From a virus: 64,000 nucleotides of DNA. Of the stretch, positions 2,383 to 64,000 are shown in pieces. The notes beneath the pieces are model-generated. The model saw nothing but the letters and a program-made list of their open reading frames with translations. It had not been told where the DNA came from and made no database searches. Made by a program: the position numbers and the translations under genes. Every line of letters starts with the position of its first letter. Position 1 is the stretch's first letter. The stretch covers positions 103,190 to 167,189 of IMG/VR virus record IMGVR_UViG_3300009103_000004; one strand, 5' to 3'.

Positions 2383-2994
2383 CTATTCATATCCCTTAAA
2401 ATCTGCAGGAGATAGTTTTCTTACAAGTTCCTTACCAGTAACCTTGTCCAAGTAAGTAACATTTGGAAAGCTTCCGGGTCCGAATGCATTGGATGATGTG
2501 GGTGTATGGCCCTCATCAACTAGCTTCAAAAAAGTTTTTCTAGCAGGGCCTTCGACATAAGTATTCGCAAAATCCTTCTGCCATTCGCCAAAATGCTTTC
2601 TACTCATAACGCCGGTCGCAACATTACCATATGACTTACCAAGCATTGGACCGCGCATTGCTGCTTTGGGGTCTTTTAAGTAGTCATCATAGGTGCTAAA
2701 AAATTTTCTCATCCCACTAGGATTAAGTCTCTTAGCCTCGTTATACCAAGGGTTAACAGGCTGTTCTTTGCTAACATTCCCTAGAGAGAGCGGTTTCTTT
2801 GGCATTTGCCCAACCTTAGGAACAGATCTCCTAACATTAGGAACAGGTCTTACAATAGCAGAAGATTCTGGATGTTTAAATGATTTTGGTATTGGAGGAG
2901 GAGCTACAGCTCGTGGCTTTAACTTGGGGCGTACCTTGGGCTTTATTCTGGGAACAGCTTCCTTAACCAGCCAATACTTTTCCTTGTTGGTCAT
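2383..2994 (-). CDS. NKEKY-tag family protein (basic, Pro-rich; putative internal virion protein)
   Basis: Starts MTNKEKYWLVKEA-VPRIKPKVRPK. Confidence 0.75.
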   Translation of the reverse strand: MTNKEKYWLVKEAVPRIKPKVRPKLKPRAVAPPPIPKSFKHPESSAIVRPVPNVRRSVPKVGQMPKKPLSLGNVSKEQPVNPWYNEAKRLNPSGMRKFFSTYDDYLKDPKAAMRGPMLGKSYGNVATGVMSRKHFGEWQKDFANTYVEGPARKTFLKLVDEGHTPTSSNAFGPGSFPNVTYLDKVTGKELVRKLSPADFKGYE

Positions 2995-3419
2995 CAACCA
3001 CCTGTGTAATGCGGAAATTGATTTCCAAGAAGTTTCTTTAGTTTCTCACTCTGAGCAGATGAGTCTAAAGTTCCCCAAGACCCAGTACCATATCTTTTAT
3101 TGTAGCTATCTATTGCAGAACGACCAGCAGCGTTGGCTCTATCCTGCTGCCACTTAGCTCTCCCGGTAAGTGGAGGAGGAGCGGGAGCTGGGATCGACAC
3201 GTTTACTGGAGGAACTGGAGGAGGAGATCCAACTGGTGGTTTTTTAGAAACATTACCGGGATTGTGTGGTACAGTTGGCTTAACTACCTTTCCCTTGGCG
3301 GGTGGTGCTATTTGAGCTCCACTGGCAGAATCAAATGTCCCATACGAATCAGAGTATGATCCAGACGTTGAGTTAGACTCAGCTAACTTTACTAAAAAAT
3401 ATTTCTCTTTATTGTTCAT
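2994..3419 (-). CDS. NKEKY-tag family protein
   Basis: Starts MNNKEKYFLVKLA; Pro/Ser-rich body. Confidence 0.75.
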   Translation of the reverse strand: MNNKEKYFLVKLAESNSTSGSYSDSYGTFDSASGAQIAPPAKGKVVKPTVPHNPGNVSKKPPVGSPPPVPPVNVSIPAPAPPPLTGRAKWQQDRANAAGRSAIDSYNKRYGTGSWGTLDSSAQSEKLKKLLGNQFPHYTGG

Positions 3420-3429
3420 AGTTATTTGT

Positions 3430-3738
3430 TCATTTCAGACCGCCAGAAGCAGCTAATATCCCGGCCAAGGCAGCAGGTATCATAGCAGCTTGGTAGGGGT
3501 TCATTTGAAATGGGTTTACGTATTCCCACCAGTTATCTCGTTTTCGCGTAGTAAAGAATCCATCTTCTCCCCGTTGTCTGATGTCTCTAACTTCCTTCTT
3601 ATATTCTGACATTGGCTCGCAATACGTACCATCTTCCTTTTCAACACACCAACGTTCAGGAACTTCTCTCTTGGGATCTGGTTCCTGAATCCCAAAAAAA
3701 GCTTCCTTAACCAGCCAATATTTCTCTTTGTTGTTCAT
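3430..3738 (-). CDS. NKEKY-tag family protein with hydrophobic C-terminus
   Basis: Starts MNNKEKYWLVKEA. Confidence 0.75.
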   Translation of the reverse strand: MNNKEKYWLVKEAFFGIQEPDPKREVPERWCVEKEDGTYCEPMSEYKKEVRDIRQRGEDGFFTTRKRDNWWEYVNPFQMNPYQAAMIPAALAGILAASGGLK

Positions 3739-3740
3739 GG

Positions 3741-4082
3741 TTACTCCTTTCCTTCCTCAGAATTAAGATATTCTAAATTAGCTATATCCTGTTCTGTAAG
3801 TTCTTCGCCTCTCTTTTTCTTAGCCTCTAGGTCTTTCTTTTGTTTTTTTGCTCTTCCGCCTAAAGGTCCCGTAGTATGAAGGGGAGCATAAGCACCTATT
3901 GACGCGCCAGGCATAAAAAGAGACATTAAAGTAGCGTAAGCCCGAACCTTATCCTTATTAAAAGGCTTGGCATTAGGTCCACGCATTCTAGCTACCAAGC
4001 CGGGGTGTTTGATGCCACGCTCTTCCCAGGATTTATATTCCTTTGCAGTTTTGAATAGAAAATATTTCTCTTTGTTACTCAT
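3741..4082 (-). CDS. NKEKY-tag family protein
   Basis: Starts MSNKEKYFLFKTA. Confidence 0.75.
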   Translation of the reverse strand: MSNKEKYFLFKTAKEYKSWEERGIKHPGLVARMRGPNAKPFNKDKVRAYATLMSLFMPGASIGAYAPLHTTGPLGGRAKKQKKDLEAKKKRGEELTEQDIANLEYLNSEEGKE

Positions 4083-4085
4083 CAG

Positions 4086-4631
4086 TTACATTATAGACGC
4101 TCGAAAAGCTTTCAACTTCTCGTTCGCAGTTTGCTCTCGTATCCATTCAAGATTCTTTCTCCGATGCTCTATATACTCTCTTCTCTCTTCTTCAGTAGGT
4201 GGCTCGTGTCCACGTCGTGCCCTCCAGTCATCAAGATCCTTGGTTTCAGAAATATTCTTTTCGTAAACCTCCAACAATCTACCCAAATCCTTCCTATCAA
4301 AACTAGGTGCGCCTACCCTTCCTTCCAAGAAATCATCTGGCGAATTATGAGTACCCTCAATCATACGATCCTCTAAAAGACGATTGACCAATTCTTTGTC
4401 GGTCTCCCCCCAAAACTTATACCAAGGCCGATCTTCCCCATGCATCATCTCATGCACCAAAGGACCTTCAGTCCCCTTATCCCCCAGCCATCCTGTTACG
4501 TTATACTTGTCAGCAGCATCTCCACCCTCAGTTAATCGAATGTCATCAGGAGTGAGCTCTCTATCGTATCCGGCAATACCCAAGCCCATACCAGCTAACT
4601 TAACCAAATAATATTTCTCTTTGTTATTCAT
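4086..4631 (-). CDS. NKEKY-tag family protein
   Basis: Starts MNNKEKYYLVKLA. Confidence 0.75.
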   Translation of the reverse strand: MNNKEKYYLVKLAGMGLGIAGYDRELTPDDIRLTEGGDAADKYNVTGWLGDKGTEGPLVHEMMHGEDRPWYKFWGETDKELVNRLLEDRMIEGTHNSPDDFLEGRVGAPSFDRKDLGRLLEVYEKNISETKDLDDWRARRGHEPPTEEERREYIEHRRKNLEWIREQTANEKLKAFRASIM

Positions 4632-4818
4632 TTTCTATTTTAATTAAAAAACAACCTATGTTCTTACTTAGCTGTGTAACTCGTTCCAGAGCTTCTTCTT
4701 TTTTCTTACCCCGCATTTTTTTAGCTTCCTCATAAAGGTCCAGTATAAAGTCATTAGTTATCTTATGTTTAACCACGCCAACTACTTTATCTTCCTTACT
4801 CAAGGTGACTGATTCCAT
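4624..4818 (-). CDS. small hypothetical protein (lacks the tag)
   Basis: Fills the gap between tag-family genes with overlapping start/stop. Confidence 0.6.
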   Translation of the reverse strand: MESVTLSKEDKVVGVVKHKITNDFILDLYEEAKKMRGKKKEEALERVTQLSKNIGCFLIKIENE

Positions 4819-5546
4819 TAAGGGTTATACTTACTAGAGGTACTAGGAGAATATATATCCCTAAGCGCACCAGACATAGGACCCTCTTCAGCCCAGCCTC
4901 GTTGGAACTCAAGGTCGTCAAGGTCGTCATAAACAGAACCAGGTCTTTTATTGCTCCTAGCCCAGGGAGGTGCGTCGTCGGATATGCCAGTCGGACGTTT
5001 ACCACTTAGAGACCTCTGATAATCTGCCCATCCTGGAGACATAGCAGTCGGTATGGGGTCGCCGGGCTTCCAGAGAGGTGGAGGGTCTTTGGGGAATACG
5101 GGTTTTTTGGGAGTCCGCTTAGTCTTAGGAGCACCAGTTATAGGACTAGTTCCTTTACTTCCTCCTGAAGGAGGACTTTTCCAAGTCGCCTGTGGGGTTC
5201 CAAATCTTTTAAGTTCCGTTTCATTCGGAAACCATTTTCTCATAAATAGCTCTCTTTGTTGTTCGAGAGGCGAATTTCCGCGTAATTCTCTATCGAGAGA
5301 CTTCGGCTTAGCTGTCACCTCTTTTTGTTTACCAGTTATAGGACTAGTTCCTTTACTTCCTCCTGAAGGATTTGTAACGGCTGCTGTTTGCTTGCCTGAT
5401 GGTGGCTTGGACTTAATAGGAAATACGTCTGTGTCCCTTGGGACTTGTATCGGCTTAGCTAAAACCTTGCTAGGCTTGGGCCTAACCTTAGGTCTAATCT
5501 TAGGTATAGCGTACTTAACCAAATAATATTTCTCTTTGTTGTTCAT
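4818..5546 (-). CDS. NKEKY-tag family protein
   Basis: Starts MNNKEKYYLVKYA-IPKIRPKVRPK; internal duplicated peptide PSGGSKGTSPITG. Confidence 0.75.
   Translation of the reverse strand: MNNKEKYYLVKYAIPKIRPKVRPKPSKVLAKPIQVPRDTDVFPIKSKPPSGKQTAAVTNPSGGSKGTSPITGKQKEVTAKPKSLDRELRGNSPLEQQRELFMRKWFPNETELKRFGTPQATWKSPPSGGSKGTSPITGAPKTKRTPKKPVFPKDPPPLWKPGDPIPTAMSPGWADYQRSLSGKRPTGISDDAPPWARSNKRPGSVYDDLDDLEFQRGWAEEGPMSGALRDIYSPSTSSKYNP
5133..5370. repeat. 40-bp perfect direct repeat (5133-5172 and 5331-5370)
   Basis: accagttataggactagttcctttacttcctcctgaagga occurs twice, in frame. Confidence 0.9.
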
Positions 5547-6154
5547 TTCCTTGGGGTCATGTTATAGCCTGTTATTTCTTCTTTGTTAGTGGTAAGATTC
5601 GTGTTAATTGGAGTCCCAGTTGCGTAAGTTCTCGTAGGAGCATTTCCAGTCATGGCAAAAGAACCTAACGCTTGTTGCCAAGGACTCTGCGCAGTACCTG
5701 GTTGGTTTGTAGTAATCTGATCCTTAGTTATATTGCCGTTCTGCATCACTGTCTCAGCACTAACATGTTCCCCGAACTGCTTGGCTTGATTGTTCATGCC
5801 TGGTGTAGGATTAGCAGATATTCTATCTCCCATAGTGTTCATGTCTGAGCCATATAAAGAAGTGGTAGCTTTGTTTTGCGCCCAAGTCTTGGCTCCTTGT
5901 GGTGCAAAACTATTCCACATGGTGCCCGCCATACCTACCAGTGGCTGGGCAACCGTATTGAACATAGCGCCAGCTTGCTGTCCAGCTTGCCCAGCTTGCT
6001 GTAATACGTTAGTTGGTTTTTCACTCATTACTCCTGCGGGAGGTCCTGAGAAAGCTGCACCTATCGAGCCTGCAGGATGTTTGAAAAAGTCTCCTACAGA
6101 ATAGTTCTGTTGGTTGGCTAACTTAGTTAAATATAATTTTTCTTTGTTGTTCAT
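5543..6154 (-). CDS. NKEKY-tag family protein (Gln/Gly/Thr-rich)
   Basis: Starts MNNKEKLYLTKLA. Confidence 0.75.
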   Translation of the reverse strand: MNNKEKLYLTKLANQQNYSVGDFFKHPAGSIGAAFSGPPAGVMSEKPTNVLQQAGQAGQQAGAMFNTVAQPLVGMAGTMWNSFAPQGAKTWAQNKATTSLYGSDMNTMGDRISANPTPGMNNQAKQFGEHVSAETVMQNGNITKDQITTNQPGTAQSPWQQALGSFAMTGNAPTRTYATGTPINTNLTTNKEEITGYNMTPRK

Positions 6155-6156
6155 AT

Positions 6157-6702
6157 TCATCGAGTACTGTTTTGATCCAAAGCACGAGAGTTAGGAAATG
6201 ATCTAGAATCCAGTTGACTTCCTACTACACCGCCAGCACCCATAGCAGCAGGAACAGCAAGAACAGAAGCGGGGATGCCGCCCTTTTGAGCTGCCTGTCC
6301 TGACAAACCTCCGCCAGATGGGTTAAACTTTAGCTCATCAACTACAGAACGAGGTATTACAGGAGCAGTTGTATCCATTTTCTTAGGTGCCTGCAGTTTA
6401 GGTCTGGGGGTTGAAGGCGAAGCTGCTGGCGGAGCTGCTGCTGGAGCTGGCCTCTTAGGCATGGGCATAACGTTTGGTGTCTCTCCCTTTGAAGGATTTG
6501 TAGCAGCTCCTGGTCTCCTACCACTAGAACGAAGATGTTCAAACGAATCTTTGTTCTCACGTACGCGTTTAAGATAATGCTCTAAATGAAGATCTCTATG
6601 ACCAAAGCGTGGGTCAGCCTTAGGCCTTGGGCGAGGATTTGGCCTAACCTTTAACCTAGGAACAGCTTCCTTAACTAAAAAATATTTCTCCTTATTATTC
6701 AT
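6157..6702 (-). CDS. NKEKY-tag family protein
   Basis: Starts MNNKEKYFLVKEA-VPRLKVRP. Confidence 0.75.
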   Translation of the reverse strand: MNNKEKYFLVKEAVPRLKVRPNPRPRPKADPRFGHRDLHLEHYLKRVRENKDSFEHLRSSGRRPGAATNPSKGETPNVMPMPKRPAPAAAPPAASPSTPRPKLQAPKKMDTTAPVIPRSVVDELKFNPSGGGLSGQAAQKGGIPASVLAVPAAMGAGGVVGSQLDSRSFPNSRALDQNSTR

Positions 6703-8975
6703 TTTCTTGGTACCAATGGGTTGTTTTCTAATTGTTCGTCTGTTTTAAATTGATCTAAAAAGGAATGTCTAGGATCTTTACCGAAGCCTACGTCCCGTGT
6801 TCCCGACTTAGCATTAGGGAGTCCGTGACTATCCTCTCCTGTAAAATCTACAGCACTGGGGCTGCCCATATTTCCTGGAGGTGTTTGGGTACCAGGCTGG
6901 CCCATAGCTCCCGGATCGCCTGGAGGTTTTGATCCTATGGACGGAGATTCTTTATCGCCTACAGGTATTACTACTGGTGTCAGTGCGGGATTACTAAGTA
7001 CCGCTTCCCAAGGAGCATCAGTCGTAGTTTGACCCTGATGTATCCTATCAGCAGCCTCTAAGTACGGTATCGACTGCTGCCCTAAATCTCTTGCACCAGT
7101 TGCGATAGACGATGCACCAGTTGATAGGCCAGAGGCTGCAGCAGTTGCCGCCTGATCCACTATATGTTCAGCGTCCTCTTCTTTAACTCCAAGATCAATA
7201 AGAGGAGCCTTTGCGTATTCTGTTCCCTTTTCCTTAGCCTGCGATTGTAAATCACCAGCTACAACACCGCCTGCGTTCCTTACTAGTTTAGCAACGGGAG
7301 TATTTGCAGCAGCGCGGTACTCAGCTAAGTTAGGTACATCAGAATTTAAGAACTCCTCGCTATTCAGCGTAGACATATAGTTTATTAAGTCCTCTCTCGA
7401 CTCATCTCCAAACTCAACACCTGTACCATCTGCGGCCTGGTTAAATAGTGTATTCATTCCTTGCCCCGCGACCACGGATACAGGGCCTCGTAAACTTTGT
7501 GTAAGTAGACCGGAACCTTCTGGTATTCTAGCCTCACCCAACATGGCATTAGTAGCTAAATTAAGTATCAAATCGGACTGTCGATTTACAGAATCTTCGT
7601 AAGGGCTAGTCTCACCCCATATTTGGTATGGATTAAGTTTACTATTTATCACCTGGTTTACGGCAGGCCAAGCATCTTTACGTATGGAACGCAACATTCG
7701 TTCTTTAGCATCATCACTCAGCGTAACGCCGTATTCAGCTTCAATACTAGCAGCAAATTCATCAACAATTTGTGATGGTACAGCATCTACAGCATTATAA
7801 CCTTGGTATGACAAAATTGGAGCCGAAGATGCTATTGTGGCTCTACCCAAAGGCGACTTCCAATATCCCACTCCGCCATAATGAAGGGGACTGAGAGCTG
7901 TGTTTACTCCACGCCGGAATAAAGTATCTTTCCTACCCAAATCAAACGGCCTAGTAGCTTTTGCTAGAGGATTATATTTCCAAACAGGTTTATTTGGTCT
8001 AACTAGATTAACTGCTGACTGAGTACCTGGACGTCTAATAATATCCAAAAACTTACCAACATCTTGTGTAAGAGCATCTGGCCTTGGTGCACCACCCGGC
8101 CTCGTAGCTGGCTTGCCCGGAACATTAGTTAATAGCTTTTCCTCTAATTTTTTAACTAAAAATGGGTGTACTGGCTTAGGTCCTCGATATCTGGACGGAT
8201 TAGTAGCAGAACCTGGTCGGAAAACTTGTCTATTACCCGGGGTTTGTCTTGGGGTTGGGCGTACACCTTTATTATTAGGGAGTGACCGCAGGCCAGTTAG
8301 AGGCGTTGGCTTGGGCTTAACCCTAGGTCTAATTTTTGGTACAGCAGATTTTACAAGTGAGGCACTCTTTTCCTTTTTCTTCTTTTTATTCCTATCTTTA
8401 TAGTTGTTGTAAGCCATGTGGGCCACGCCTGTAACTAAACCCGTACCAGCTGCACCTGCAGTCCAAGCCCAAGGATTGTTGGCTCTCCAAAAAGGAAGTT
8501 GTAACGTCCTATCCTTACGGAGAGCACTATCTGGAGTAAAATCAATAGGAGCTGCAGCGTCAGTATCCTGTATTACAGGCTTGGGAGGAGTAGCCTTGTT
8601 CCAGGTTCTACTAATATCAACTGCTTCATTATTAGCGTGCCTTGCAATTCGTTTTTTAAGCTCATGATGTTCACGCGCTATAGGATTCGAATTATCCCCA
8701 CGTAACCAAGGTGGTATCGTTTTTGGAAGAGATTTACTTCCCGTTGAAGATATTTGATCCCTAAGTGCAATATGTTCCCTACGATCTTGTAACGGTAATT
8801 TTCTCCATTCAGGAGTTCCTATTTGCTGTATTTTATCTAAAAAGCTAGAACCACCAAACTCAGGTGCAGCAAACCCCCCAGAGGATATGCTCTGTCTGGC
8901 TTTTTCAACAGCGTCCGGACTCATGTCTATCCCGCATTTGACCAAGCCCAGTTGTAGTTCTCTATTCACAAACAA
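6699..8975 (-). CDS. large low-complexity protein with internal KSA motifs (putative virion polyprotein)
   Basis: 758-aa ORF; internal EKSASLVKSA-VPKIRPRVKPKP matches the post-tag segment of neighbouring genes. Confidence 0.7.
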   Translation of the reverse strand: MFVNRELQLGLVKCGIDMSPDAVEKARQSISSGGFAAPEFGGSSFLDKIQQIGTPEWRKLPLQDRREHIALRDQISSTGSKSLPKTIPPWLRGDNSNPIAREHHELKKRIARHANNEAVDISRTWNKATPPKPVIQDTDAAAPIDFTPDSALRKDRTLQLPFWRANNPWAWTAGAAGTGLVTGVAHMAYNNYKDRNKKKKKEKSASLVKSAVPKIRPRVKPKPTPLTGLRSLPNNKGVRPTPRQTPGNRQVFRPGSATNPSRYRGPKPVHPFLVKKLEEKLLTNVPGKPATRPGGAPRPDALTQDVGKFLDIIRRPGTQSAVNLVRPNKPVWKYNPLAKATRPFDLGRKDTLFRRGVNTALSPLHYGGVGYWKSPLGRATIASSAPILSYQGYNAVDAVPSQIVDEFAASIEAEYGVTLSDDAKERMLRSIRKDAWPAVNQVINSKLNPYQIWGETSPYEDSVNRQSDLILNLATNAMLGEARIPEGSGLLTQSLRGPVSVVAGQGMNTLFNQAADGTGVEFGDESREDLINYMSTLNSEEFLNSDVPNLAEYRAAANTPVAKLVRNAGGVVAGDLQSQAKEKGTEYAKAPLIDLGVKEEDAEHIVDQAATAAASGLSTGASSIATGARDLGQQSIPYLEAADRIHQGQTTTDAPWEAVLSNPALTPVVIPVGDKESPSIGSKPPGDPGAMGQPGTQTPPGNMGSPSAVDFTGEDSHGLPNAKSGTRDVGFGKDPRHSFLDQFKTDEQLENNPLVPRK

Positions 8976-20345: not shown

Positions 20346-20422
20346 TGGTGGGCCCTGTCGGGTTCGAACCGACGACCTGCCGATTATGAGTCGGACGCTC
20401 TAACCAACTGAGCTAAGGGCCC
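20346..20422 (-). tRNA. tRNA with CAT anticodon, most like tRNA-Ile2 (lysidine type)
   Basis: GGGCCCTTAGCTCAGTTGGTTAGAGCGTCCGACTCATAATCGGCAGGTCGTCGGTTCGAACCCGACAGGGCCCACCA; full cloverleaf, encoded CCA, acceptor resembles ileX-type rather than initiator Met. Confidence 0.9.
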
Positions 20423-23654: not shown

Positions 23655-24434
23655 TTATTTGGTTGCGCCGAACCTGCTGCTTAGCATATCTGCGCAATGG
23701 AAGATAATTGTTAATGGATTTTCAGTACCAGCTAATTCAAACTTGCTGGTCTCATACGCTCCGCCATGAAATTCTATGGCTTCTTTCTCAATATCACTGA
23801 GGTGCTCTAATAGGTTAGGTGCTATTCCAGCAAGCAAGGCAAGGCTTTTAAGCCCACCGTTTTTGATAGAAAGTTTCTTATTCTCGAACAACCAGTTAAG
23901 AGCTCTTCCAGAGCCACCACCAGGCTTACCAGCAGTGGTGAGACGCTCCTTCAATTCAGTAAAAGCAAAACATTCTTTATTTATTTTATAAGGAATCTTC
24001 TCACTAACAGCGCCAGATTTTAATATATTCTCTTGGTACTGCTCATTAGTTGCAGCGTCCATTACTTTATGAATATCGTGAAGAATAGCCACAGTGAGGA
24101 TGTTACCGTCATTAATAACGCCGGGCCAGATGTGATGTTCACGATCTGCAACTGTGCACTTATCTACAAATGCGCACCCTTCGGTAAGCGCAAAGTGATA
24201 TTCTATCAAGCCATCAGCCAAAGCTTTTGCTATACTGAATACCTCCAGTATATGCTTAACAAGGCCTCCAGGATAGGCGTGATGGTATGCAATTTTAGAT
24301 GAAGCAGGTGCTGCTACTAAGAGTGCACTTATATCTTCAATAAAAGAACTTAGTTCAAGAGCCAGTGGCTCCTCTACATGTTTATCGATAAGAGACAAAA
24401 TAGTCTCTATACGTGGATCTAATAATTCTGCCAT
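23655..24434 (-). CDS. HD-domain hydrolase (YhaM-like)
   Basis: APAS..HHAYPGGLVKH, LHDIHK, HGG, HCADM motifs. Confidence 0.8.
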   Translation of the reverse strand: MAELLDPRIETILSLIDKHVEEPLALELSSFIEDISALLVAAPASSKIAYHHAYPGGLVKHILEVFSIAKALADGLIEYHFALTEGCAFVDKCTVADREHHIWPGVINDGNILTVAILHDIHKVMDAATNEQYQENILKSGAVSEKIPYKINKECFAFTELKERLTTAGKPGGGSGRALNWLFENKKLSIKNGGLKSLALLAGIAPNLLEHLSDIEKEAIEFHGGAYETSKFELAGTENPLTIIFHCADMLSSRFGATK

Positions 24435-24486
24435 AACATAAAAAAAGCGCCGGTAGGCGCTTAGGATTTAAAATATAATTTGTGTA

Positions 24487-24702
24487 TCAACTACCTCTTT
24501 TAGGAGGTCTACCTCGTTTTCCAACCTGCTTTACTTTACTTGAAAGTTTATCAACATCTGCGGAAGTACCATCCACATACAAACCGAAGTCGCTGGCCAT
24601 GTTGGGTAACAACTCTAGGTTTTTTCTAACTACATCAAAATCAGATTCCACTTCTGAAATGACGTCTACTGTTATAGTTAAGCTAAATTTTTTCTTAATC
24701 AT
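24487..24702 (-). CDS. small protein with C-terminal AT-hook
   Basis: Ends GKRGRPPKRGS. Confidence 0.6.
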   Translation of the reverse strand: MIKKKFSLTITVDVISEVESDFDVVRKNLELLPNMASDFGLYVDGTSADVDKLSSKVKQVGKRGRPPKRGS

Positions 24703-25084
24703 GCCTACCCTTAACCATAGCTATAAACTCAAACATTTTCTTTTTACTCTTAATTTTTATTATCTCTTGTTTGTGAATGTACTTGAACATCTTTTCCTTC
24801 ATTTTAAACACGGGAGTTTCAAATCCCTTCGTGTCTACAAGATATTCATGACCGTGCCAATTAACTAAAAAATCGCCAATGTAGTGTATAGCCCTGATTG
24901 CTTTACCACTAGCATCACGAAACTTAGGTTGAAGCTCATATTTAGGACTACGTGTAAAGTGAATAGTACCTATCTCATCCTTGAGAATTTTATAAGCATT
25001 CATCTCCCACTTGGAATCAAACACTATACCATCATGTGTCCTATCCTTCTTGGGCGACACATTGTACTTATTGAAACTACGCAT
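24695..25084 (-). CDS. DUF1064-like PD-(D/E)XK nuclease-fold protein
   Basis: NKY...DGIVFDSKWE...YELQPKF...YIGDF...VDTKG; start reassigned to MRSFNKY because the promoter motif lies at 25126-25136. Confidence 0.75.
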   Translation of the reverse strand: MRSFNKYNVSPKKDRTHDGIVFDSKWEMNAYKILKDEIGTIHFTRSPKYELQPKFRDASGKAIRAIHYIGDFLVNWHGHEYLVDTKGFETPVFKMKEKMFKYIHKQEIIKIKSKKKMFEFIAMVKGRHD

Positions 25085-25146
25085 TAATAGGTAGAAGTAA
25101 AGAACACTTATAGTGAACTCAATAATATATAACACACGAGGACATA

Positions 25147-26475
25147 TTATTTCTCGTCCTCTACATCTTCCATTTTACCATCAAAAAAACCATCAACCTC
25201 ATCAGTTTCGTCATATTCTTCGGGATCTTCTTCAGACTCAAATTCAGAAGAATCGGAATCATCTCCTGAAGCAAAAAAAGAAGTACCCTCGTCCAACGAA
25301 GACTTCAATGCTTTATTAACACCGAAAAAACTACGGGCTATTGCTGCTGCAGTTTTTTCACCCGACTCTTCGGGGAGGTTTTGCACAGCTTCTTTTATTT
25401 CCGGGCTCTCTATCAATCTTGCTGCACGAAACGCTTTGTTATATTCGCAAGCAACTTTACTTAAAAAATCCTTTTCTTGATCACTTAGCATACTAGCTGT
25501 GTGGAACATATACGGACTCATGTTTCTGTACTCAGCAGCAAACAATGGAGCAAACGCAGATTTAAGTAGTGGATCCCTAGCTATAACACCAATAGCTATA
25601 TTTTTTTTAACATCACTAACGTTAGTCTTTGCAGCACCCTTTATCATTTTGAAAGCATGATTTAAACCATAACTTAGATTATCTTTTATCTCGTCGGCCC
25701 TACCCGAGGCAACTGCCGTTATTAAATCATCAAAACCAGCTTTTTTACTAATCTCTGGGTCTGCAGTTGTAGTCCTTATTAAACTCTCTATTTCTTCCGC
25801 ATCGGTGGGTTTCTCATCAGTTCGTATCTTTCTAACAACTTTGTCATCTTCACCCATAACGTGTATGGCTTTAGGGTAGTCTACTGGTCGTTGAACTTTT
25901 ATAGACCTACCACCAACAGGCCTATACTTACCCCCAAGTTGATTTGGCATACTCCTTTTCGGGAAAGCCTCATCTAATGTTTTATAAGATATAACACCAC
26001 TCGCTAAAGCCAAAAGCAAAAGTGCACCATACGTACCGGCCTCTATATTTTCACCAAAGGCCTCTTTGTTGATAGATGCATACTTTTTACGTTCTTTATC
26101 ACGCTTATCCTGGAGTGCTTCCATGTACGCAATTTGAGCATCATCCATTTCCTTCTGCAAAGATTTATCACGTACCATATCGTATAACCAGCGAACACCT
26201 TGGTAACCAGCAATACTACCCCCTACCGCACCTGTAGCATTTAAAAACTTACCAAAGCCCGAATCGTCTCTTGTTGAGGCGGACTTCTCATCTTCCTTTT
26301 TTTTAGATTTAATGTACAGGACATCATCATCTTTGGACGTGTCAACAGTTGCCTCGCTTTTCATTCTGTTGAAATCACGTATGTAGTGATACAAAGCTGA
26401 TAAACCGCCACCAGCTAACGCTCCGCCGCCAACATAGCGGGCGAGAGACTCCCAATCTACTGCTTCTTTATTCAT
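25147..26475 (-). CDS. putative virion protein with Gly-rich hydrophobic segments and multiple KxA motifs
   Basis: MNKEA, EKSA, NKEA, KKAG, EKTA; acidic tail. Confidence 0.6.
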   Translation of the reverse strand: MNKEAVDWESLARYVGGGALAGGGLSALYHYIRDFNRMKSEATVDTSKDDDVLYIKSKKKEDEKSASTRDDSGFGKFLNATGAVGGSIAGYQGVRWLYDMVRDKSLQKEMDDAQIAYMEALQDKRDKERKKYASINKEAFGENIEAGTYGALLLLALASGVISYKTLDEAFPKRSMPNQLGGKYRPVGGRSIKVQRPVDYPKAIHVMGEDDKVVRKIRTDEKPTDAEEIESLIRTTTADPEISKKAGFDDLITAVASGRADEIKDNLSYGLNHAFKMIKGAAKTNVSDVKKNIAIGVIARDPLLKSAFAPLFAAEYRNMSPYMFHTASMLSDQEKDFLSKVACEYNKAFRAARLIESPEIKEAVQNLPEESGEKTAAAIARSFFGVNKALKSSLDEGTSFFASGDDSDSSEFESEEDPEEYDETDEVDGFFDGKMEDVEDEK

Positions 26476-26830
26476 TATCACTAGGGCCTCTGGGCGTACC
26501 AGTTAATTTTTTATAAGTAATAGCGCCACTTACTACAAAAACCTTCCAAGTAGAATTTGTTTCACAAAACCTTTTGTCTTGCTCGAGTATGACACTAGAT
26601 GGCTCTTCCTTAATATTGCTAGCGAGAAGTGTCTCATACTTCTTGCGATCAGGTGCCTTAGATAAATCAAATACATCAACCTTAATGTTAGACAGCTTCC
26701 AAGAATCATCCTTTTCAAACTGCCCCTGAACAGAGGCACTGCCCCATAATTCTTGACCATCCAAACTTACCTCATTCGGGTGCATATTAGATATTGCAGC
26801 ACGCAAATGTCCTTCTAAATCGTTATTCAT
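26468..26830 (-). CDS. hypothetical protein
   Basis: ORF coupled to neighbours. Confidence 0.6.
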   Translation of the reverse strand: MNNDLEGHLRAAISNMHPNEVSLDGQELWGSASVQGQFEKDDSWKLSNIKVDVFDLSKAPDRKKYETLLASNIKEEPSSVILEQDKRFCETNSTWKVFVVSGAITYKKLTGTPRGPSDNE

Positions 26831-27381
26831 GATACGCCATATTTAGTTTCCATAGACCGTTTGAGATCATTGGTCAAATTTCTGTAATATTCAATCTTTC
26901 TTTTCTTAGCATCATTTTCAGCTTTATCTTGCTCAACACTCCTGTCTGCATGCCACTTTAAAGCTCCAGCCCCAGCTCCTGTTAAAGCTGATGCACCACC
27001 TAGTAACCACATAATAGTTTCAGCACTAGCACCTGCAAATCCTGGAAGGGCGCTCAACAAACCACCAGCAGACTTGTTAATTGCTGCCTCTTTAACATGA
27101 TCAAATATGTGGTTACTCATCTGTTCTATGGCTTCATTATGGTCCATATCTACATTAGCCATAGCACCAAGAAGTTTAGCAACCTTTGTGTTTGCATGAC
27201 CGTCATCTACAAAAAGTTTATGTAGAAAAGACATGACCTTACGATGTGCCTTTTTTCTGAAATCCTGCTCGTGTGTGTCAATAGCACCAGAAGCAAAATT
27301 TACATCCGCTGGTGCTATGCCCAATGTCGTAGCACCTATAAATTTTCCTAAATCTCTTCCAGCAGTTTTCTCGATACTCAT
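26827..27381 (-). CDS. putative virion protein (KxA motifs, Gly-zipper segment)
   Basis: MSIEKTA; VKEAAINKSAGG; Gly/Ala-rich hydrophobic stretch. Confidence 0.6.
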   Translation of the reverse strand: MSIEKTAGRDLGKFIGATTLGIAPADVNFASGAIDTHEQDFRKKAHRKVMSFLHKLFVDDGHANTKVAKLLGAMANVDMDHNEAIEQMSNHIFDHVKEAAINKSAGGLLSALPGFAGASAETIMWLLGGASALTGAGAGALKWHADRSVEQDKAENDAKKRKIEYYRNLTNDLKRSMETKYGVS

Positions 27382-27389
27382 ATTATTTA

Positions 27390-27986
27390 TTAAGTTACAG
27401 CAGCACCAACAACATCTCCCAAAGGTAAACTTGCCTCTCTAGAGTTGGATGCCAAATATTTTTTGGCACGAGTTTTATCGTGTCTGGTTACCATACGATC
27501 TAATATTAGCTTATCTATGGCGGAAGTTGCAACAGGAATCGCAGCCCCAGCTAGGCCACCACCTATAGCACTATTTAATGCGATACGATTAGGATCTCCA
27601 TTACCTGTAAGTCGGGAGAGTAAATAACCTGCAAGTCCAGAACCTACAGCACCACCCAACGCCCAAGATGGGGATTTTTTTAAACCTGCCAACAATTGAT
27701 CCTTCCAGGTCCTGTTAGTTAAATCTTTGACAGTTTTACTCAAAATACGATCAGCCTCAACGGGGTTATTACCTTGAACAACAGAATTAGACACAAGTTC
27801 ATTAGCATAATAACCGGGAATGGCAAGTGGAGGGACTGCCATCATTGCTGCTGTAGGTATAGTAGCAACAGCAACATTTGGGTCGTCATTCCTGGATTGT
27901 TGCCTTATTGCCTTTTGTGCTAAGTAACGACCAAGCCAGGAGCTTCCACGTGGGTCTGTAAAGGGTAATACAGCCTGCTTTTTCAT
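27390..27986 (-). CDS. putative virion protein (Gly-zipper)
   Basis: MKKQA start; GGAVGSGLAG and GGGLAG segments. Confidence 0.6.
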   Translation of the reverse strand: MKKQAVLPFTDPRGSSWLGRYLAQKAIRQQSRNDDPNVAVATIPTAAMMAVPPLAIPGYYANELVSNSVVQGNNPVEADRILSKTVKDLTNRTWKDQLLAGLKKSPSWALGGAVGSGLAGYLLSRLTGNGDPNRIALNSAIGGGLAGAAIPVATSAIDKLILDRMVTRHDKTRAKKYLASNSREASLPLGDVVGAAVT

Positions 27987-28792
27987 TACATGTAGTACGG
28001 ACGTCCTAGGTTGTCATATGGGGACTTGGGGGGAGCTCCTCCAGCACCGCGAGCACTAGCAAGGCCGGACACTATCGTTGTTAATAACGTACCAAACTTT
28101 CCTAGCCCCAACAAATATTTAGCTACTAAGTAGCCAACGCCGCCACCCATTGCACCGCCAACTAGTTGGTTTAATCGTCTAGTTTGTTGAGCGTTTAAGT
28201 ATTGTACTTGATTAGCCAACTCTTGTTTCTGCCTAAGTGTTAACTCAGTATCTCTATATATTTTGGCTATAACATCGTTAGAGCTAGATAATCCGTATGC
28301 AATTTTCACATGATTTTCTTTTAGAAGATCCTCTTCTTGTTCTTCGGTAGTTCTTCTATCTAAAGGTGCGTTCTCATCAGCTTCCATAGCATTATCGAAA
28401 TCAAATTTATCTTTAAACAGCCCGCCAACAAAAGGTATCTTACTAGACCAGTCCTTGTTCCTAAGCATAAAGCCTAATCCGCCCAAGCCTAAAGATCCAA
28501 GTCCGCCGCCTATCAGTGCCCCCTTACCAGCATTACCAGAAAATGCCCCTATAAGTCCTCCCAAGCCAGCACCAACAAGACCGCCTGTGGCCATACTGTT
28601 AGCCCAACCAGGTATGGAAACATCGTTGACCTTTATATCTTTAGTGGACCTGTATAGAGGACCCATTAATGTAGGCATAACTTTGTGATGAGTCCAAGCA
28701 CCTAGCCTATTAGCCGGAGAGTCTGCAAGCTCAACGCCAGAGTTCAACCCCTTAGGAAGACGTTGACTAATAGCCAATTTACAAAGAGACAT
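27986..28792 (-). CDS. putative virion protein (Gly-zipper)
   Basis: MSLCKLA start; GGLVGAGLGGLIG segments; internal VKIA. Confidence 0.6.
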   Translation of the reverse strand: MSLCKLAISQRLPKGLNSGVELADSPANRLGAWTHHKVMPTLMGPLYRSTKDIKVNDVSIPGWANSMATGGLVGAGLGGLIGAFSGNAGKGALIGGGLGSLGLGGLGFMLRNKDWSSKIPFVGGLFKDKFDFDNAMEADENAPLDRRTTEEQEEDLLKENHVKIAYGLSSSNDVIAKIYRDTELTLRQKQELANQVQYLNAQQTRRLNQLVGGAMGGGVGYLVAKYLLGLGKFGTLLTTIVSGLASARGAGGAPPKSPYDNLGRPYYM

Positions 28793-32144: not shown

Positions 32145-33959
32145 TTACTGCCCTCCTGCCTGTTGGTACATATTCTGTACCCCTTCAGACTTTGCCTGAC
32201 CGCGCATATCTTCTAAGAATTGCTTAGCTAGAGAATACAAAGTTTGATCCGTAGCTTTAACCTGGGCCATCGCCTTCCTGCGCTCACCTTCTGGAAGTCC
32301 AGCCCATTGCTGGGCCATCTCTTGTGCCTGACCTTGGACATCCATAGGTGTAACTGCACTACCGCCACCACCTTGCTGAGCGTTGCCAACAGGGCCACCT
32401 GGAGGTGATCCACCACCGCCTTGCTGCTCAGCTTGTTGCTGTGCCTGTGCATCGAGATGCTTGTCTATAGATCCAGTTTCCATCTCACGCCTGAGGTCCT
32501 CCTCTTGCTTCATCTGAACTTTTTGAATCTCAGCATCCTCTTCCAGGCGTTCTTTCTTCTCGTCCACAGCGTCAGTAATACCCAACCAGGAGTAAGCTTT
32601 CTTCCTGGATATTTCACCAGAGCTAGAAAGCTGCATGATTACATTCTGACGATCCATATTATCAGCAAGACTTGGACGCTCGAGTTGTACATGCATATAC
32701 GGCTCGCCCATGAATTTAGATATCTTTTTGGATACCCACTGAGCAAAATCATTAAAGCCCAAGTGAATAAACATAAAACTATTTTCAAACAATCGAACTG
32801 CGGTGGGTACTTGTTGGACTTGAAGAGAACCCTTAAACAACTCTGCGGGATACCCCATAGCATCCAACATACTGTTAGTCTGGTACTCGATTAAATCCTT
32901 AGGTGCCAGGTTTTTGCCCTCGGCACCGAACTCTTGGTACTTTAGTGGGAACGGAAAAGCATGCATAGCAAACTTATCCTTGCGACGATTCTTAATAATA
33001 TTCTCAACTTGACCGCGCCATTGACTCAAAATTAAATTACGAACAACGCCAGTTTCATTAGTTCCAGGCTCCGGAGTGAATATACGAAATGGAACCATGT
33101 AATCCAACCCTATAGCCTCATCTATTTTTCTGTATACCTGTAGTATATGGAGGGACCTATAATTAGCTATGGTCTCAGGCAAGCCCCAACCTCTGTTACT
33201 TATCCCAGATATAGTAGGGGATTTAAAATGAAAAACTTCATCTTCATAAAACAGAAAATCTTTATCATCAGATACCGCACGCAACATATCCAGGGGCACC
33301 TCATTAACGATGTAAAGCTTGCCGTCTTTACAGTCCTTAACCAACTCCTTGGGAAATCTGTAAACATAAGAATTACTACCCGAAATGACGTTGTGCCGTA
33401 TTGTTACGTTTTTCGGATCTAGTTTTCTAGTTCTTATACGTCCTTTGTCTTTTACAGGAATATCTCTAAACGGTAACTTTATTTTTTTCTTAACATTTTT
33501 AGGATCAGGAACCTCATACTTCATAGCCTTAAGGTCAAAAGAAATATTACCTTCAGAAAACATATTCAACGAGTACTCAGCATCATGTCTCTCATCTACA
33601 AGAACTCTATCAAAAGGAAAATGAATACGATAAAAAGAATTACCGAAGCACGCCCATTCATCTCCCATCTCAGCCATTGCTTGGTGCAACCTTAGAGTAT
33701 ATGTAAAATATTCGTCAGCGTTATCCTTTTCCTCAGCAGATCCGTCTCCAGGAAACTCAAAATCAGTTATAAAGTGGCGTATAACCCGCATGGATGCACG
33801 CCTATATTGTGGGTTTAGGTAGTAGAGAAATAAACAAAAGTCTAAAGCGGATTCCAAGTTCTCAGGGACATACTCACTGGAAGGTAGTAAGAATGGATCA
33901 TCAAATTTTTTAGCGACATCGCTAGAGAAATGAAATTTTAAATCGTCTGAAGAACTCAT
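32145..33959 (-). CDS. putative portal protein
   Basis: 604 aa; FGNSF, EVFHFK and WGLP motifs and helical Q/G-rich tail typical of portals; structural-gene context. Confidence 0.55.
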   Translation of the reverse strand: MSSSDDLKFHFSSDVAKKFDDPFLLPSSEYVPENLESALDFCLFLYYLNPQYRRASMRVIRHFITDFEFPGDGSAEEKDNADEYFTYTLRLHQAMAEMGDEWACFGNSFYRIHFPFDRVLVDERHDAEYSLNMFSEGNISFDLKAMKYEVPDPKNVKKKIKLPFRDIPVKDKGRIRTRKLDPKNVTIRHNVISGSNSYVYRFPKELVKDCKDGKLYIVNEVPLDMLRAVSDDKDFLFYEDEVFHFKSPTISGISNRGWGLPETIANYRSLHILQVYRKIDEAIGLDYMVPFRIFTPEPGTNETGVVRNLILSQWRGQVENIIKNRRKDKFAMHAFPFPLKYQEFGAEGKNLAPKDLIEYQTNSMLDAMGYPAELFKGSLQVQQVPTAVRLFENSFMFIHLGFNDFAQWVSKKISKFMGEPYMHVQLERPSLADNMDRQNVIMQLSSSGEISRKKAYSWLGITDAVDEKKERLEEDAEIQKVQMKQEEDLRREMETGSIDKHLDAQAQQQAEQQGGGGSPPGGPVGNAQQGGGGSAVTPMDVQGQAQEMAQQWAGLPEGERRKAMAQVKATDQTLYSLAKQFLEDMRGQAKSEGVQNMYQQAGGQ

Positions 33960-34312
33960 TTGACTGAAATTATGTTTTGAGCCTTACCCTGCTCTGTTAA
34001 CCAATCTTTTATAGGTTCTTCTATCCATGGCTTGGTTGCACCAATAGAAGCCCCAACAAGTGCACTGCGTAAAGCCTGCCCTATTGGATCTCTCTTGAAC
34101 ACCTTAGTATACTTCTTACGTTTCCTGGGGGCGCCTGTAAGAGTAAAATCAGATTGGTGTATGTCAAACTTGTGCGGTACCAAAGCAGCGGATAAACCAC
34201 CCAGTAGGCCACCAGCTATACCGCCTGAGCCTGCACTTATCAAAGCCTCTAGGGCTTTAGGCGAGAGAGTTATCGCCATTTTCACCATCTGATACTTCTG
34301 AAGATTCTTCAT
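33956..34312 (-). CDS. Gly-zipper protein with variant N-terminal tag
   Basis: MKNLQKYQMVKMA aligns position-for-position with MNNKEKYxLVKxA. Confidence 0.6.
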   Translation of the reverse strand: MKNLQKYQMVKMAITLSPKALEALISAGSGGIAGGLLGGLSAALVPHKFDIHQSDFTLTGAPRKRKKYTKVFKRDPIGQALRSALVGASIGATKPWIEEPIKDWLTEQGKAQNIISVK

Positions 34313-63017: not shown

Positions 63018-63404
63018 TTAAGCGTACTTTTTAGAAAGAGACTTATATCGCTTAGCCTCTTCCTCTTCTCCAGGGCTACCTTCGCCCCAAGCTGAGTGAC
63101 CCAGTCGTTTGTACAGGTTATAGTCTCCTACTCCTGGTAGGAAATTCATACCCCCCTCGCCCTCGGCATCCATTTGTTCTTTTCTAGTCCTAGTTGGACT
63201 AGCCCCAGCAGCTATCATTGCTATGATTTTTGGTAAAATCATCCCCGTTTGCATGGCCATACCCGTCTCGGTATTACTGAGGCCACCCAGCTCACCAGCT
63301 ATACCGCCAGCGGTCATTCCTATCAAGGGACTTAATGTTGAACCCGCAAACTCAGATGGAAGCCCTGCTAGTTTAAGTAATTGGTATTTTTCCTTGTTAG
63401 TCAT
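63018..63404 (-). CDS. NKEKY-tag family protein
   Basis: Starts MTNKEKYQLLKLA; Gly-rich hydrophobic body. Confidence 0.75.
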   Translation of the reverse strand: MTNKEKYQLLKLAGLPSEFAGSTLSPLIGMTAGGIAGELGGLSNTETGMAMQTGMILPKIIAMIAAGASPTRTRKEQMDAEGEGGMNFLPGVGDYNLYKRLGHSAWGEGSPGEEEEAKRYKSLSKKYA

Positions 63405-63405
63405 A

Positions 63406-63954
63406 TTAATTATCCCCGTAAGATGTTACAAAACCAGATTTGGTTGCATTACCTTCAGAATTAACTACGGCAGGTTGTTGTGGCGCCATGGGCGCAGGAG
63501 TCGATCCTGGGCCAGGGGGAGGAGCGAAATTAGAAGGATCAAAATCAAATCCAGATCGGTCTCCCAAAGGTTTGCCAGTACGAGGGTTTAAAGCTTGTAA
63601 ACTTTCTCCTGGTTTTAACTGGGGCCCGTGCCCTGGTGTCAGCGGGCCTTTTATAGCTGGTGAATTAGGAAATGGAGCATTAAAGACCTCTGGCCCAACA
63701 GGAATAGAATCGTCATCTTCATCAAATACAAGTCCTTTATCCCAAGCTGGTGCATCATCTCCAGGTTTCTTTCCTGGCGCCAGCGCTGGAGAGCCGGGAG
63801 TAGATTGTCCTCCAGTTGTTTGGCTGGGCGTTATGCTAGACGCGCCAGAGGAAATCCACGAGGGCTGATTATTCCCTACTCTATTAACAGCCCCAATATT
63901 AGGGTAGCTATTTTGAGGGCCGAAGCGTGGGCGCTCAAACTTTGGCTGAATCAT
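63406..63954 (-). CDS. Pro/Gly-rich protein (reading frame may extend beyond the window)
   Basis: DDAPAW echoes DDAPPW in the tag-family protein at 4818..5546. Confidence 0.6.
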   Translation of the reverse strand: MIQPKFERPRFGPQNSYPNIGAVNRVGNNQPSWISSGASSITPSQTTGGQSTPGSPALAPGKKPGDDAPAWDKGLVFDEDDDSIPVGPEVFNAPFPNSPAIKGPLTPGHGPQLKPGESLQALNPRTGKPLGDRSGFDFDPSNFAPPPGPGSTPAPMAPQQPAVVNSEGNATKSGFVTSYGDN

Positions 63955-64000
63955 ATTCTTAGGATGGTCTTTTATGCCAGCCGATGCTGGTGGTGTAACG

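What the first reader, a model, noticed from the sequence alone, without database searches (positions are those of the whole stretch)
2383..6702. Family of dissimilar proteins sharing a 13-residue N-terminal tag M[NST]NKEK[YL]xLxKxA
Seen: eight nearly consecutive genes (starts 2994, 3419, 3738, 4082, 4631, 5546, 6154, 6702), a ninth at 63404 and a variant at 34312 (MKNLQKYQMVKMA, adjacent to the putative portal gene) share the tag, after which sequences diverge into largely unrelated low-complexity bodies. Synonymous codon differences among the tags suggest selection at protein level. Established: T4 internal proteins carry a ~10-aa N-terminal capsid-targeting sequence removed by the prohead protease. 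Inference: this is a modular head-targeting and cleavage signal (cut near K-x-A) that loads a variable set of cargo proteins into the virion for delivery at infection.
Basis: partly seen in the sequence, partly recalled or inferred. Interest (0 to 1): 0.85.

Follow-up and report, generated by a model that had tools for sequence, protein, structure and literature searches.

The report
Shared head-loading tag on phage proteins
About a dozen otherwise unrelated small proteins of this uncultured 167-kb marine phage, and more than 50 in its relatives, start with the same 13 amino acids ending in a motif that the phage's own T4-type head protease seems to cut. They are therefore probably cargo loaded into the capsid and trimmed there, as phage T4 does with its internal proteins, but no virion data exist.

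Summary
Nine window genes and one elsewhere in the genome start with M-N-N-K-E-K-[Y/L]-x-L-V-K-x-A. There are also three degenerate copies and one internal copy. The bodies are unrelated.

Across 37 distinct gene starts the conservation is at protein level: Leu9 uses all six codons and Ala13 all four. It ends sharply at residue 13.

Close marine relatives carry arrays of up to ten tagged genes inside the head-assembly module. A search of 1.84 billion proteins found the tag only at N-termini of small proteins of this lineage.

The phage encodes a T4 gp21-fold prohead protease. K-x-A is enriched in this protease and the scaffold-like protein (18 seen, 5 expected). It sits at the end of the capsid-protein leader here and in the cultured relative Arash. 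It is strongly depleted in the bodies of tagged proteins (9 seen, 33 expected), while reversed and unrelated controls are flat.

Best reading, about 60%: a leader removed by the head protease after Ala13 from proteins packed in the capsid. Its N-terminal half probably acts as the loading signal. Packaging and delivery are untested.

This is a new variant of the T4 capsid-targeting-sequence principle. This scan has noted similar tags on other phage DNA.

The parts
2383..2994 (-). tagged gene, 203 aa (tag = codons 1-13, 2956-2994; M-T-N-K-E-K-Y-W-L-V-K-E-A). Basic Pro-rich body starting V-P-R-I-K-P.
2994..3419 (-). tagged gene, 141 aa, Pro/Ser-rich basic body
3430..3738 (-). tagged gene, 102 aa, acidic body with a hydrophobic C-terminal stretch
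3741..4082 (-). tagged gene, 113 aa. Its C-terminal 37 aa are shared with a tagged gene of relative L046.
4086..4631 (-). tagged gene, 181 aa. Tagged orthologues are P0001 (90% identity) and L048:3983-4480.
4624..4818 (-). untagged 64-aa gene inside the cluster. Homologues accompany the tag arrays in relatives L046, L048, L049 and L052. Function unknown.
4818..5546 (-). tagged gene, 242 aa, basic Pro-rich body starting I-P-K-I-R-P
5543..6154 (-). tagged gene, 203 aa (an ATG two codons upstream at 6160 is an alternative start)
6157..6702 (-). tagged gene, 181 aa, pI 11.4, Pro-rich body starting V-P-R-L-K
6699..8975 (-). 758-aa protein heading the operon. It has a degenerate tag at its start (ends L-V-K-C-G). 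An internal near-copy of the tag (K-K-E-K-S-A-S-L-V-K-S-A, about 8343-8378) is followed by V-P-K-I-R-P. This looks like a fusion to a tagged module.
63018..63404 (-). tagged gene, 128 aa, Gly-rich hydrophobic body. Tagged homologues are in L039, L046, L052 and L053. In G001 a tagged gene occupies the same position, but its body shows no detectable similarity.
33956..34312 (-). 118-aa gene overlapping the portal gene start. It has a variant leader ending Y-Q-M-V-K-M-A. The G001 orthologue keeps Y-x-M-V-K-x-A while the rest of the leader differs.
32145..33959 (-). portal protein (context)

Best explanation
The 13-residue leader is an N-terminal propeptide of head-internal (cargo or ejection) proteins. 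Its last five residues, L-V-K-x-A, are a site for the phage's gp21-fold prohead protease (genome 3805-5280), which cuts after Ala13 inside the prohead. Its first half (N-N-K-E-K-Y/L) is not shared by the other K-x-A sites of the phage and most likely directs the protein into the assembling head core, as the T4 capsid targeting sequence does. The released bodies are mostly disordered basic Pro-rich or Gly-rich hydrophobic polypeptides. In relatives one is an HD-domain enzyme and one a 928-aa protein. They would stay with the DNA and enter the host at infection. Shown in silico: the tag, its protein-level conservation, the protease fold, and the distribution of K-x-A. Inferred: the actual cleavage, the packaging, the targeting role of residues 2-8, and the delivery.
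For: 1. Tag conservation (37 distinct starts). N3, K4, E5, K6, L9 and K11 are invariant and A13 is present in 34 of 37. Third codon positions are as free as synonymy allows: six Leu codons and four Ala codons are used. Upstream DNA carries no information, and conservation collapses after codon 13.
2. Specificity. In 1.84 billion representative proteins, 28 of 29 hits carry the tag at the N-terminus of a small protein with a different body.
3. Location. In relatives L045, L046, L048, L049 and L052, arrays of 3-10 tagged genes lie in the head module. They sit between homologues of the RNAP beta' piece, the 792-aa protein (homologue of Arash virion protein gp218) and the 311-aa protein, a few kb upstream of the protease.
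4. Protease. It matches PHROG 'head maturation protease' at E 1e-7 and is 35% identical to Arash gp222, which was detected in virions (PMC10585845). The top three Foldseek hits of its AF2 model are T4 gp21, 5JBL, at probability 1.00.
5. Distribution of K-x-A. Hydrophobic-x-K-x-A/S is 72 seen against 44 expected in the head/RNAP block but at expectation in non-structural blocks. It is 7 against 1.1 in the scaffold-like protein and 10 against 1.95 in the protease.
6. Conserved positions. The motif ends the capsid-protein leader in this phage (N-I-K-S-A) and in Arash (L-V-K-E-A). It also ends the leaders of Arash gp220-223 and lies at the start of gp206. It is retained in otherwise variable linkers of the 792-aa orthologues and bounds a duplicated module in L046. 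It is conserved in the protease family consensus.
7. Avoidance. K-x-A is 9 seen against 33 expected in 34 tagged bodies, with 0 of 1000 shuffles as low. The result holds for local shuffles and for 31 non-redundant bodies. Controls are flat: A-x-K 34 against 34, K-A 33 against 34.
8. Modularity. The tag is on an HD-domain protein and a 928-aa protein. It also occurs internally in the 758-aa protein.
Against: There is no proteomic, structural or genetic datum for this phage or any tag-bearing relative. The K-x-A rule is itself inferred, because the Arash paper gives only coverage, not N-termini. The cultured relatives Arash and phage G show no N-N-K-E-K tag family in the regions examined, so the tag cannot yet be tested in a cultured system. 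In this genome eight of the genes lie about 100 kb from the head module. The very short M-x-K-x-A starts in the portal block are not conserved in G001, so not every K-x-A is a site. Packaged RNAP pieces are not depleted in K-x-A; this is expected only if folding protects them. Gp21-type proteases studied so far cut after Glu, not Ala.
Confidence: 0.6

Rival explanations
1. Processing-only propeptide. The head protease removes the leader, but the leader has no targeting role. Incorporation into the head is determined by the bodies or by co-assembly. The conserved residues 2-8 only make a site so close to the N-terminus a good substrate, or keep the protein inert until maturation.
For: All the K-x-A evidence fits this equally well. 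A near-copy of the tag works in an internal position of the 758-aa protein, so a free N-terminus is not required.
Against: Other predicted sites (scaffold, protease, capsid protein, 792-aa protein) share only hydrophobic-x-K-x-A and nothing like N-N-K-E-K. The bodies are unrelated and mostly low-complexity, so a common body-borne packaging determinant is hard to see.
Confidence: 0.15
2. Uncleaved docking peptide. The leader stays on the mature protein and plugs interchangeable proteins into a virion or assembly component such as the portal, inner capsid surface, tail, or a chaperone like the co-travelling 64-aa protein.
For: Shared N-terminal docking peptides on variable virion proteins are known for receptor-binding proteins, and earlier scan notes read some tags this way. 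A conserved untagged 64-aa gene accompanies the arrays.
Against: It does not explain why K-x-A is purged threefold from the bodies while A-x-K is not. It also does not explain why the tag ends exactly in the motif that is enriched in scaffold and protease and ends the capsid-protein leader.
Confidence: 0.12
3. Recognition sequence for a different enzyme or pathway unrelated to the capsid, such as a modifying enzyme, a host protease, or a secretion or turnover signal.
For: One earlier tag family in this scan turned out to be linked to a radical-SAM enzyme rather than to the capsid (e1-127136).
Against: No candidate enzyme gene travels with the arrays. The only constant neighbours are head-module genes, a 64-aa protein and, in relatives, a small dATP/dGTP diphosphohydrolase-domain gene. 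The leader has no hydrophobic core or Cys for export or lipidation. The link to the head protease motif would be coincidence.
Confidence: 0.07
4. Nucleic-acid-level element (recombination hotspot, translation-initiation enhancer), or mere shared descent of a paralogue family without a specific function for the N-terminus.
For: The codons for N-N-K-E-K are A-rich, which favours initiation. The genes are tandem and some overlap by 1-4 nt.
Against: Third positions and even first positions of Leu9 vary freely while the residues are invariant. The upstream 24 nt carry 0.0-0.5 bit per position. The tag sits on bodies with unrelated folds and lengths from 54 to 928 aa.
Confidence: 0.03

Closest known systems
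Capsid targeting sequence (CTS) of phage T4 internal proteins IPI, IPII, IPIII and Alt, removed by the prohead protease gp21 (Mullaney and Black 1996, as cited in PMC3012670 and PMC5694885)
   Same: A 10-20-residue N-terminal peptide is the only thing shared by a diverse, fast-evolving set of small proteins. It ends in the cleavage motif of a gp21-fold protease that also trims the capsid protein and degrades the scaffold. The genes are clustered and variable between relatives.
   Different: There is no sequence similarity to the T4 CTS. The predicted cut follows Ala in hydrophobic-x-K-x-A, not Glu in L/I-x-E. The family is far larger: 10-13 genes per genome and arrays of up to 10 in a row, against three or four in T4. 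The phage belongs to a different clade with a virion RNA polymerase. Nothing has been tested experimentally.
Propeptides of ejection and inner-body proteins of giant phages phiKZ, 201phi2-1 and SPN3US (gp175/gp245 proteases; PMC5694885, PMC10052503)
   Same: Many head-internal proteins, including virion RNAP-associated ones, are processed by a gp21-like protease. Paralogues gp53 and gp54 of SPN3US share an identical 15-residue N-terminus. The protease and scaffold-like proteins are cut many times.
   Different: Those propeptides are mostly over 100 residues and the motif is S/A/G-x-E. Here the leader is a uniform 13 residues and the motif is K-x-A.
Herpesvirus assemblin maturation and release sites (own knowledge: consensus V/L/I-x-A, cut before Ser)
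   Same: The protease fold superfamily is the same as gp21, with Ala at P1 and a hydrophobic residue upstream.
   Different: The register differs (Lys at P3 here), the residue after the cut is variable, and the sites are not used as a tag on multiple cargo proteins.
Encapsulin cargo-loading peptides
   Same: A short peptide on unrelated cargo directs it into an HK97-fold shell.
   Different: These peptides are usually C-terminal, are not cleaved, and involve no protease, portal or DNA.
Other shared N-terminal leaders noted by this scan (e1-5340821, e1-5756284, e1-5757716, e1-370441; M-N-W-Y-K-x-A type in phage-G-like huge phages, e1-5956725 and e1-5379433)
   Same: The phenomenon and the reading are the same. 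The M-N-W-Y-K-x-A leaders also end in K-x-A. The protease here is homologous to phage G gp19, which itself has 8 K-x-A in 300 aa.
   Different: The tag sequence and lineage differ. Those notes are unchecked AI notes, and any link between the two tag types is only a lead.

Membership tests
T4-type capsid targeting sequence / protease-removed leader of internal head proteins (functional class) | Short N-terminal peptide shared by otherwise unrelated proteins | tested here: met
T4-type capsid targeting sequence / protease-removed leader of internal head proteins (functional class) | The phage encodes a gp21-fold prohead protease | tested here: met
   PHROG 18299 at E 1e-7. AF2 model with pLDDT 76, top Foldseek hits T4 gp21 5JBL, probability 1.00, TM 0.57 on the target.
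T4-type capsid targeting sequence / protease-removed leader of internal head proteins (functional class) | The leader ends in the protease's cleavage motif, which also occurs in the capsid-protein leader and repeatedly in scaffold and protease | tested here: met
   In silico only. Avoidance in the bodies.
T4-type capsid targeting sequence / protease-removed leader of internal head proteins (functional class) | Proteins are present in mature heads with the leader removed | not testable with these tools
   No virion proteome exists for any tag-bearing phage. The Arash supplement holds no peptide-level data.
T4-type capsid targeting sequence / protease-removed leader of internal head proteins (functional class) | The leader is sufficient to package a foreign protein | not testable with these tools
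   This needs a cultured, tractable host-phage pair.
T4 CTS proper (homology) | Sequence similar to the T4 CTS and a cut after Glu in L/I-x-E | tested here: not met
   The tag consensus has no L/I-x-E at its end. The conserved end is K-x-A.
Giant-phage (phiKZ-like) inner-body and ejection protein propeptides | Long (over 100 aa) propeptides cut at S/A/G-x-E | tested here: not met
   The leader is 13 aa and the motif is K-x-A.
Encapsulin cargo-loading peptide | Uncleaved peptide binding a portal-less HK97-fold shell | tested here: not met
   The phage has a portal, terminase, protease and tail genes.

The most novel reading that the evidence does not exclude
A large uncultivated clade of 160-225-kb phages, with cultured relatives in Arash, the Vibrio phages D69/D148/D181 and, more distantly, phage G, uses a gp21-fold head protease that has switched specificity from Glu to K-x-Ala. 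In the marine sub-lineage a 13-residue address ending in that site serves as a universal, portable 'load into the head, then trim' signal. It also works inside polyproteins. It supports a hypervariable arsenal of more than 50 injected proteins, enzymes included, so the injected proteome could be read directly from sequence.
Probability: 0.35. Interest if true: 0.7.

Novelty: new variant of a known kind. Interest (0 to 1): 0.55.

Why it matters
If correct, the tag allows two things to be read from sequence alone, in a widespread but almost unstudied clade of marine and enteric phages. One is which proteins are packed into the capsid and injected with the DNA; these are typically the first counter-defence and host-takeover factors. 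The other is where the mature proteins begin. The reading also predicts a new cleavage rule (K-x-Ala) for T4-type head proteases, which cut after Glu in every case studied so far. It offers a compact 13-residue candidate tag for loading foreign proteins into large capsids. Motif avoidance in cargo together with motif enrichment in scaffold is a general in-silico test that can be applied to the many similar leader families this scan keeps finding.

Tried and rejected
- **Complex prediction.** Protease residues 1-215 with the first 36 residues of tagged proteins gave no verdict. It is not used as evidence either way.
- **Family searches.** PHROGs, Pfam and NCBIfam on the ten tagged proteins and the 758-aa protein found no family. 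The one exception is a sub-threshold Ribosomal_S21 hit in 4086-4631: 24 bits against a cutoff of 27, and 13.5 bits in NCBIfam. The 90%-identical orthologue does not hit and the L048 orthologue lacks that segment, so the hit is treated as spurious.
- **PDB sequence searches.** The protease and 4086-4631 found nothing.
- **Strict tag pattern in IMG/VR.** It gave zero hits. A relaxed pattern found G001 plus an unrelated 40-kb phage group.
- **Arash paper and supplement.** They hold coverage values and gene sequences only, with no N-terminal peptides.
- **De novo N-terminus clustering in 80 distant head-module loci.** It was too noisy in GC-rich loci to count tag families. Only a strand-controlled motif count was used.
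- **Short M-x-K-x-A starts in the portal block.** They are not conserved in G001 and are not counted as sites.
- **Circular closure.** I considered that the contig closes on itself and that window 63406-63999 is the missing C-terminal part of the capsid protein. I rejected this because it has no similarity to the Arash capsid protein and its start duplicates a module of the 1132-aa protein.


Full report
**Setting.** The window is the last 64 kb of a 167,189-bp IMG/VR phage record, judged 94% complete. The nearest cultured relatives are Salmonella phage Arash and Vibrio phages D69, D148 and D181, with portal identity of 22-25%. Arash is a myovirus whose virion proteome holds 116 proteins, with the RNA polymerase subunits the most abundant (PMC10585845).

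- A degenerate DNA pattern for it matches 8 times in the window against 0.00 expected.
- Unsupervised clustering of all possible N-termini of the genome gives one cluster of 12. No other cluster exceeds 4.
- Extra members are a GTG-started 255-aa gene at genome 9270-10037 and a variant heading the 1132-aa protein at genome 41040-44438.
- The 758-aa protein at 6699-8975 heads the operon. It begins with a degenerate copy and holds an internal near-copy, followed by the same basic V-P-K-I-R-P run that follows three of the tags.
- After residue 13 the proteins share nothing detectable and match no family.

**Selection acts on the peptide, not the DNA.** I collected 37 distinct tagged gene starts from this genome and its relatives.
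- N3, K4, E5, K6, L9 and K11 are invariant, and A13 is present in 34 of 37.
- Third codon positions carry about 1 bit, the floor for two-codon residues.
- Leu9 uses all six codons and Ala13 all four.
- The 24 nt upstream carry 0.0-0.5 bit per position.
- Information drops to background at codon 14.

This removes the recombination and initiation-element alternative.

**Relatives.**
- A scan of metagenome contigs with the degenerate pattern returned 17 loci. Most are fragments of close relatives, with 55-75% protein identity in shared genes.
- In L045, L046, L048, L049 and L052 the tagged genes form arrays of 3 to 10 consecutive genes inside the head-assembly module. They lie between homologues of the RNAP beta' piece, the 792-aa protein (homologue of Arash virion protein gp218) and the 311-aa protein, a few kb upstream of the protease.
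- This genome keeps one tagged gene at that position (genome 9270-10037). The rest sit 100 kb away, in the window.
- The bodies fall into more than 20 unrelated groups with only a few orthologous pairs.
- One body is an HD-domain phosphohydrolase (27.7 bits against a cutoff of 22).
- One is a 928-aa protein. It is the positional and weak sequence counterpart of the 1132-aa protein here.
- A profile of the leader was searched against 1.84 billion representative proteins. It gave 29 hits at E up to 0.001, and 28 carry the tag at residues 1-5 of a 54-235-aa protein.
- The tag is therefore specific, always N-terminal, and confined to this lineage.

**The protease and its motif.**
- Genome 3805-5280 encodes a 491-aa protein that matches a PHROG head maturation protease.
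- It is the best-conserved head gene shared with Arash (gp222, a virion protein).
- It has more than 300 homologues on contigs of up to 225 kb.
- Its AF2 model (pLDDT 76) has T4 gp21 (5JBL) as its three best PDB matches.
- It lies just upstream of a 403-aa helical scaffold-like gene and, three small genes further on, the capsid protein gene. Only the first 102 codons of the capsid gene are on the contig.

Hydrophobic-x-K-x-A/S counts, seen against expected:

| Region | Seen | Expected |
|---|---|---|
| Scaffold-like protein | 7 | 1.1 |
| Protease | 10 | 1.95 |
| Head/RNAP block | 72 | 44 |
| Glycosyltransferase block | 40 | 44 |
| Replication block | 21 | 24 |

- The capsid-protein leader ends in N-I-K-S-A here and in L-V-K-E-A in Arash. 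Arash gp220, gp221, gp222 and gp223 have leaders ending in K-x-A, and gp206 begins M-P-K-S-A.
- In the 792-aa orthologues K-x-A survives in linkers where everything else varies. In L046 it bounds a duplicated 50-residue module.
- Several K-x-A sites are conserved in the protease family consensus.
- In 80 head-module loci of distant relatives, leaders of the form M, 4-7 residues, two hydrophobic residues, K-x-A occur at 150 of 23,545 starts on the gene strand. On the opposite strand they occur at 9 of 10,508.

**The avoidance test.** Tagged proteins that sit in the prohead with an active K-x-A protease and must survive should avoid the motif, especially if disordered. They do.
- In 34 bodies (5,898 residues) K-x-A occurs 9 times against 33 expected, with 0 of 1000 shuffles as low. 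K-x-A/S occurs 23 times against 62 expected.
- Controls are flat: A-x-K 34 against 34, K-A 33 against 34, R-x-A 31 against 26.
- The result holds with local shuffles of 10, 20 or 40 residues, and with 31 non-redundant bodies (8 against 30).
- Scaffold plus the protease C-terminal half show the opposite, 18 against 5.

This pattern is the strongest single argument that the leader's K-x-A is a real cleavage site and that these proteins meet the protease.

**What remains inferred.**
- The targeting role of residues 2-8 rests on one point: no other predicted site shares them.
- No virion data exist for any tag-bearing phage.
- The Arash paper gives no N-termini.
- Arash and phage G showed no comparable tag family in the regions I read.
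- Short M-x-K-x-A starts near the portal are not conserved in G001.
- The complex prediction gave no verdict.

**Comparison with known systems.** The closest system is the T4 capsid targeting sequence. [quoted passage not shown] Giant phages use longer propeptides cut at S/A/G-x-E (PMC5694885). The present case works like these, but it is not homologous in tag sequence and predicts a different cleavage rule. This scan has noted the same kind of leader on other phage DNA. That includes M-N-W-Y-K-x-A leaders in phage-G-like phages. The phage G protease gp19 is a homologue of the one here and carries 8 K-x-A in 300 residues. One earlier tag family proved to be an enzyme recognition site instead, so I kept that reading as a rival.

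**Verdict.** This is a new variant of a known kind. Confidence in the cleaved head-cargo leader reading is about 0.6.

Noticed in passing
window 4624-4818 (-); L046:7480-7671, L048:4815-5027, L049:6267 onward, L052:5992-6420: A conserved untagged 64-70-aa Lys-rich protein travels with the tag arrays in several relatives. It has no family. It might be a chaperone or adaptor for the tag.
   Followed up: partly
window 63406-63954 (-) and genome 41040-41255: The first 14 residues of the 182-aa protein just upstream of the tagged gene at 63404 are identical to the start of the last 71 residues of the 1132-aa protein. This points to module shuffling between these genes.
   Followed up: no
window 4086-4631 (-), residues 113-160: There is a sub-threshold Ribosomal_S21 match (24 bits, cutoff 27). 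It is not reproduced in the orthologues and is probably spurious.
   Followed up: yes
L018, L019, L021, L022; G004 24281-25516: An unrelated group of about 40-kb phages has a 411-415-aa Lys/Ala-rich protein starting M-T-N-K-E-K-E-A-L-V-K-A-A. It is encoded right after a 2020-aa protein and upstream of scaffold-like and capsid-size genes. This may be convergence or chance.
   Followed up: partly
L046:4049-6739 (792-aa orthologue): An inserted, tandemly duplicated module of about 50 residues has each copy ending in L-T-K-S-A, preceded by a poly-Lys run. It looks like a small polyprotein.
   Followed up: partly
L045:6357, L046:2513-2869, L048:4484, L049:5870, L052:11896: A 118-aa dATP/dGTP diphosphohydrolase N-terminal-domain gene (PF18909, E 5e-20) is embedded in the tag arrays of relatives. 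It is absent from this genome.
   Followed up: yes
P0135 (representative protein, 221 aa): It carries two copies of the tag in tandem at its N-terminus.
   Followed up: no
phages collection; L134 (Bacillus phage G 7960-26580): The protease family extends to Bacillus phage G gp19, Gordonia phage Pupper and about 200 cluster-C-like mycobacteriophages. Phage G gp19 has 8 K-x-A in 300 aa, and its portal leader contains M-A-K-Q-A.
   Followed up: partly
P0036, P0102 (protease homologues): Some protease homologues carry intein or homing-endonuclease domains (PF05203, PF14890).
   Followed up: no
window 25147-28792 (-): Several genes start M-x-K-x-A or similar, but the motif is not kept in the G001 orthologues. 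These starts should not be read as processing sites without more evidence.
   Followed up: yes
genome 75139, 77787, 80118, 84272 (outside the window): Four genes of about 205-250 aa share an M-I-S-H-K-H-K N-terminus. They look like ordinary paralogues in the sugar-modification block.
   Followed up: no
window 20346-20422 (-): tRNA-Met (CAT).
   Followed up: no
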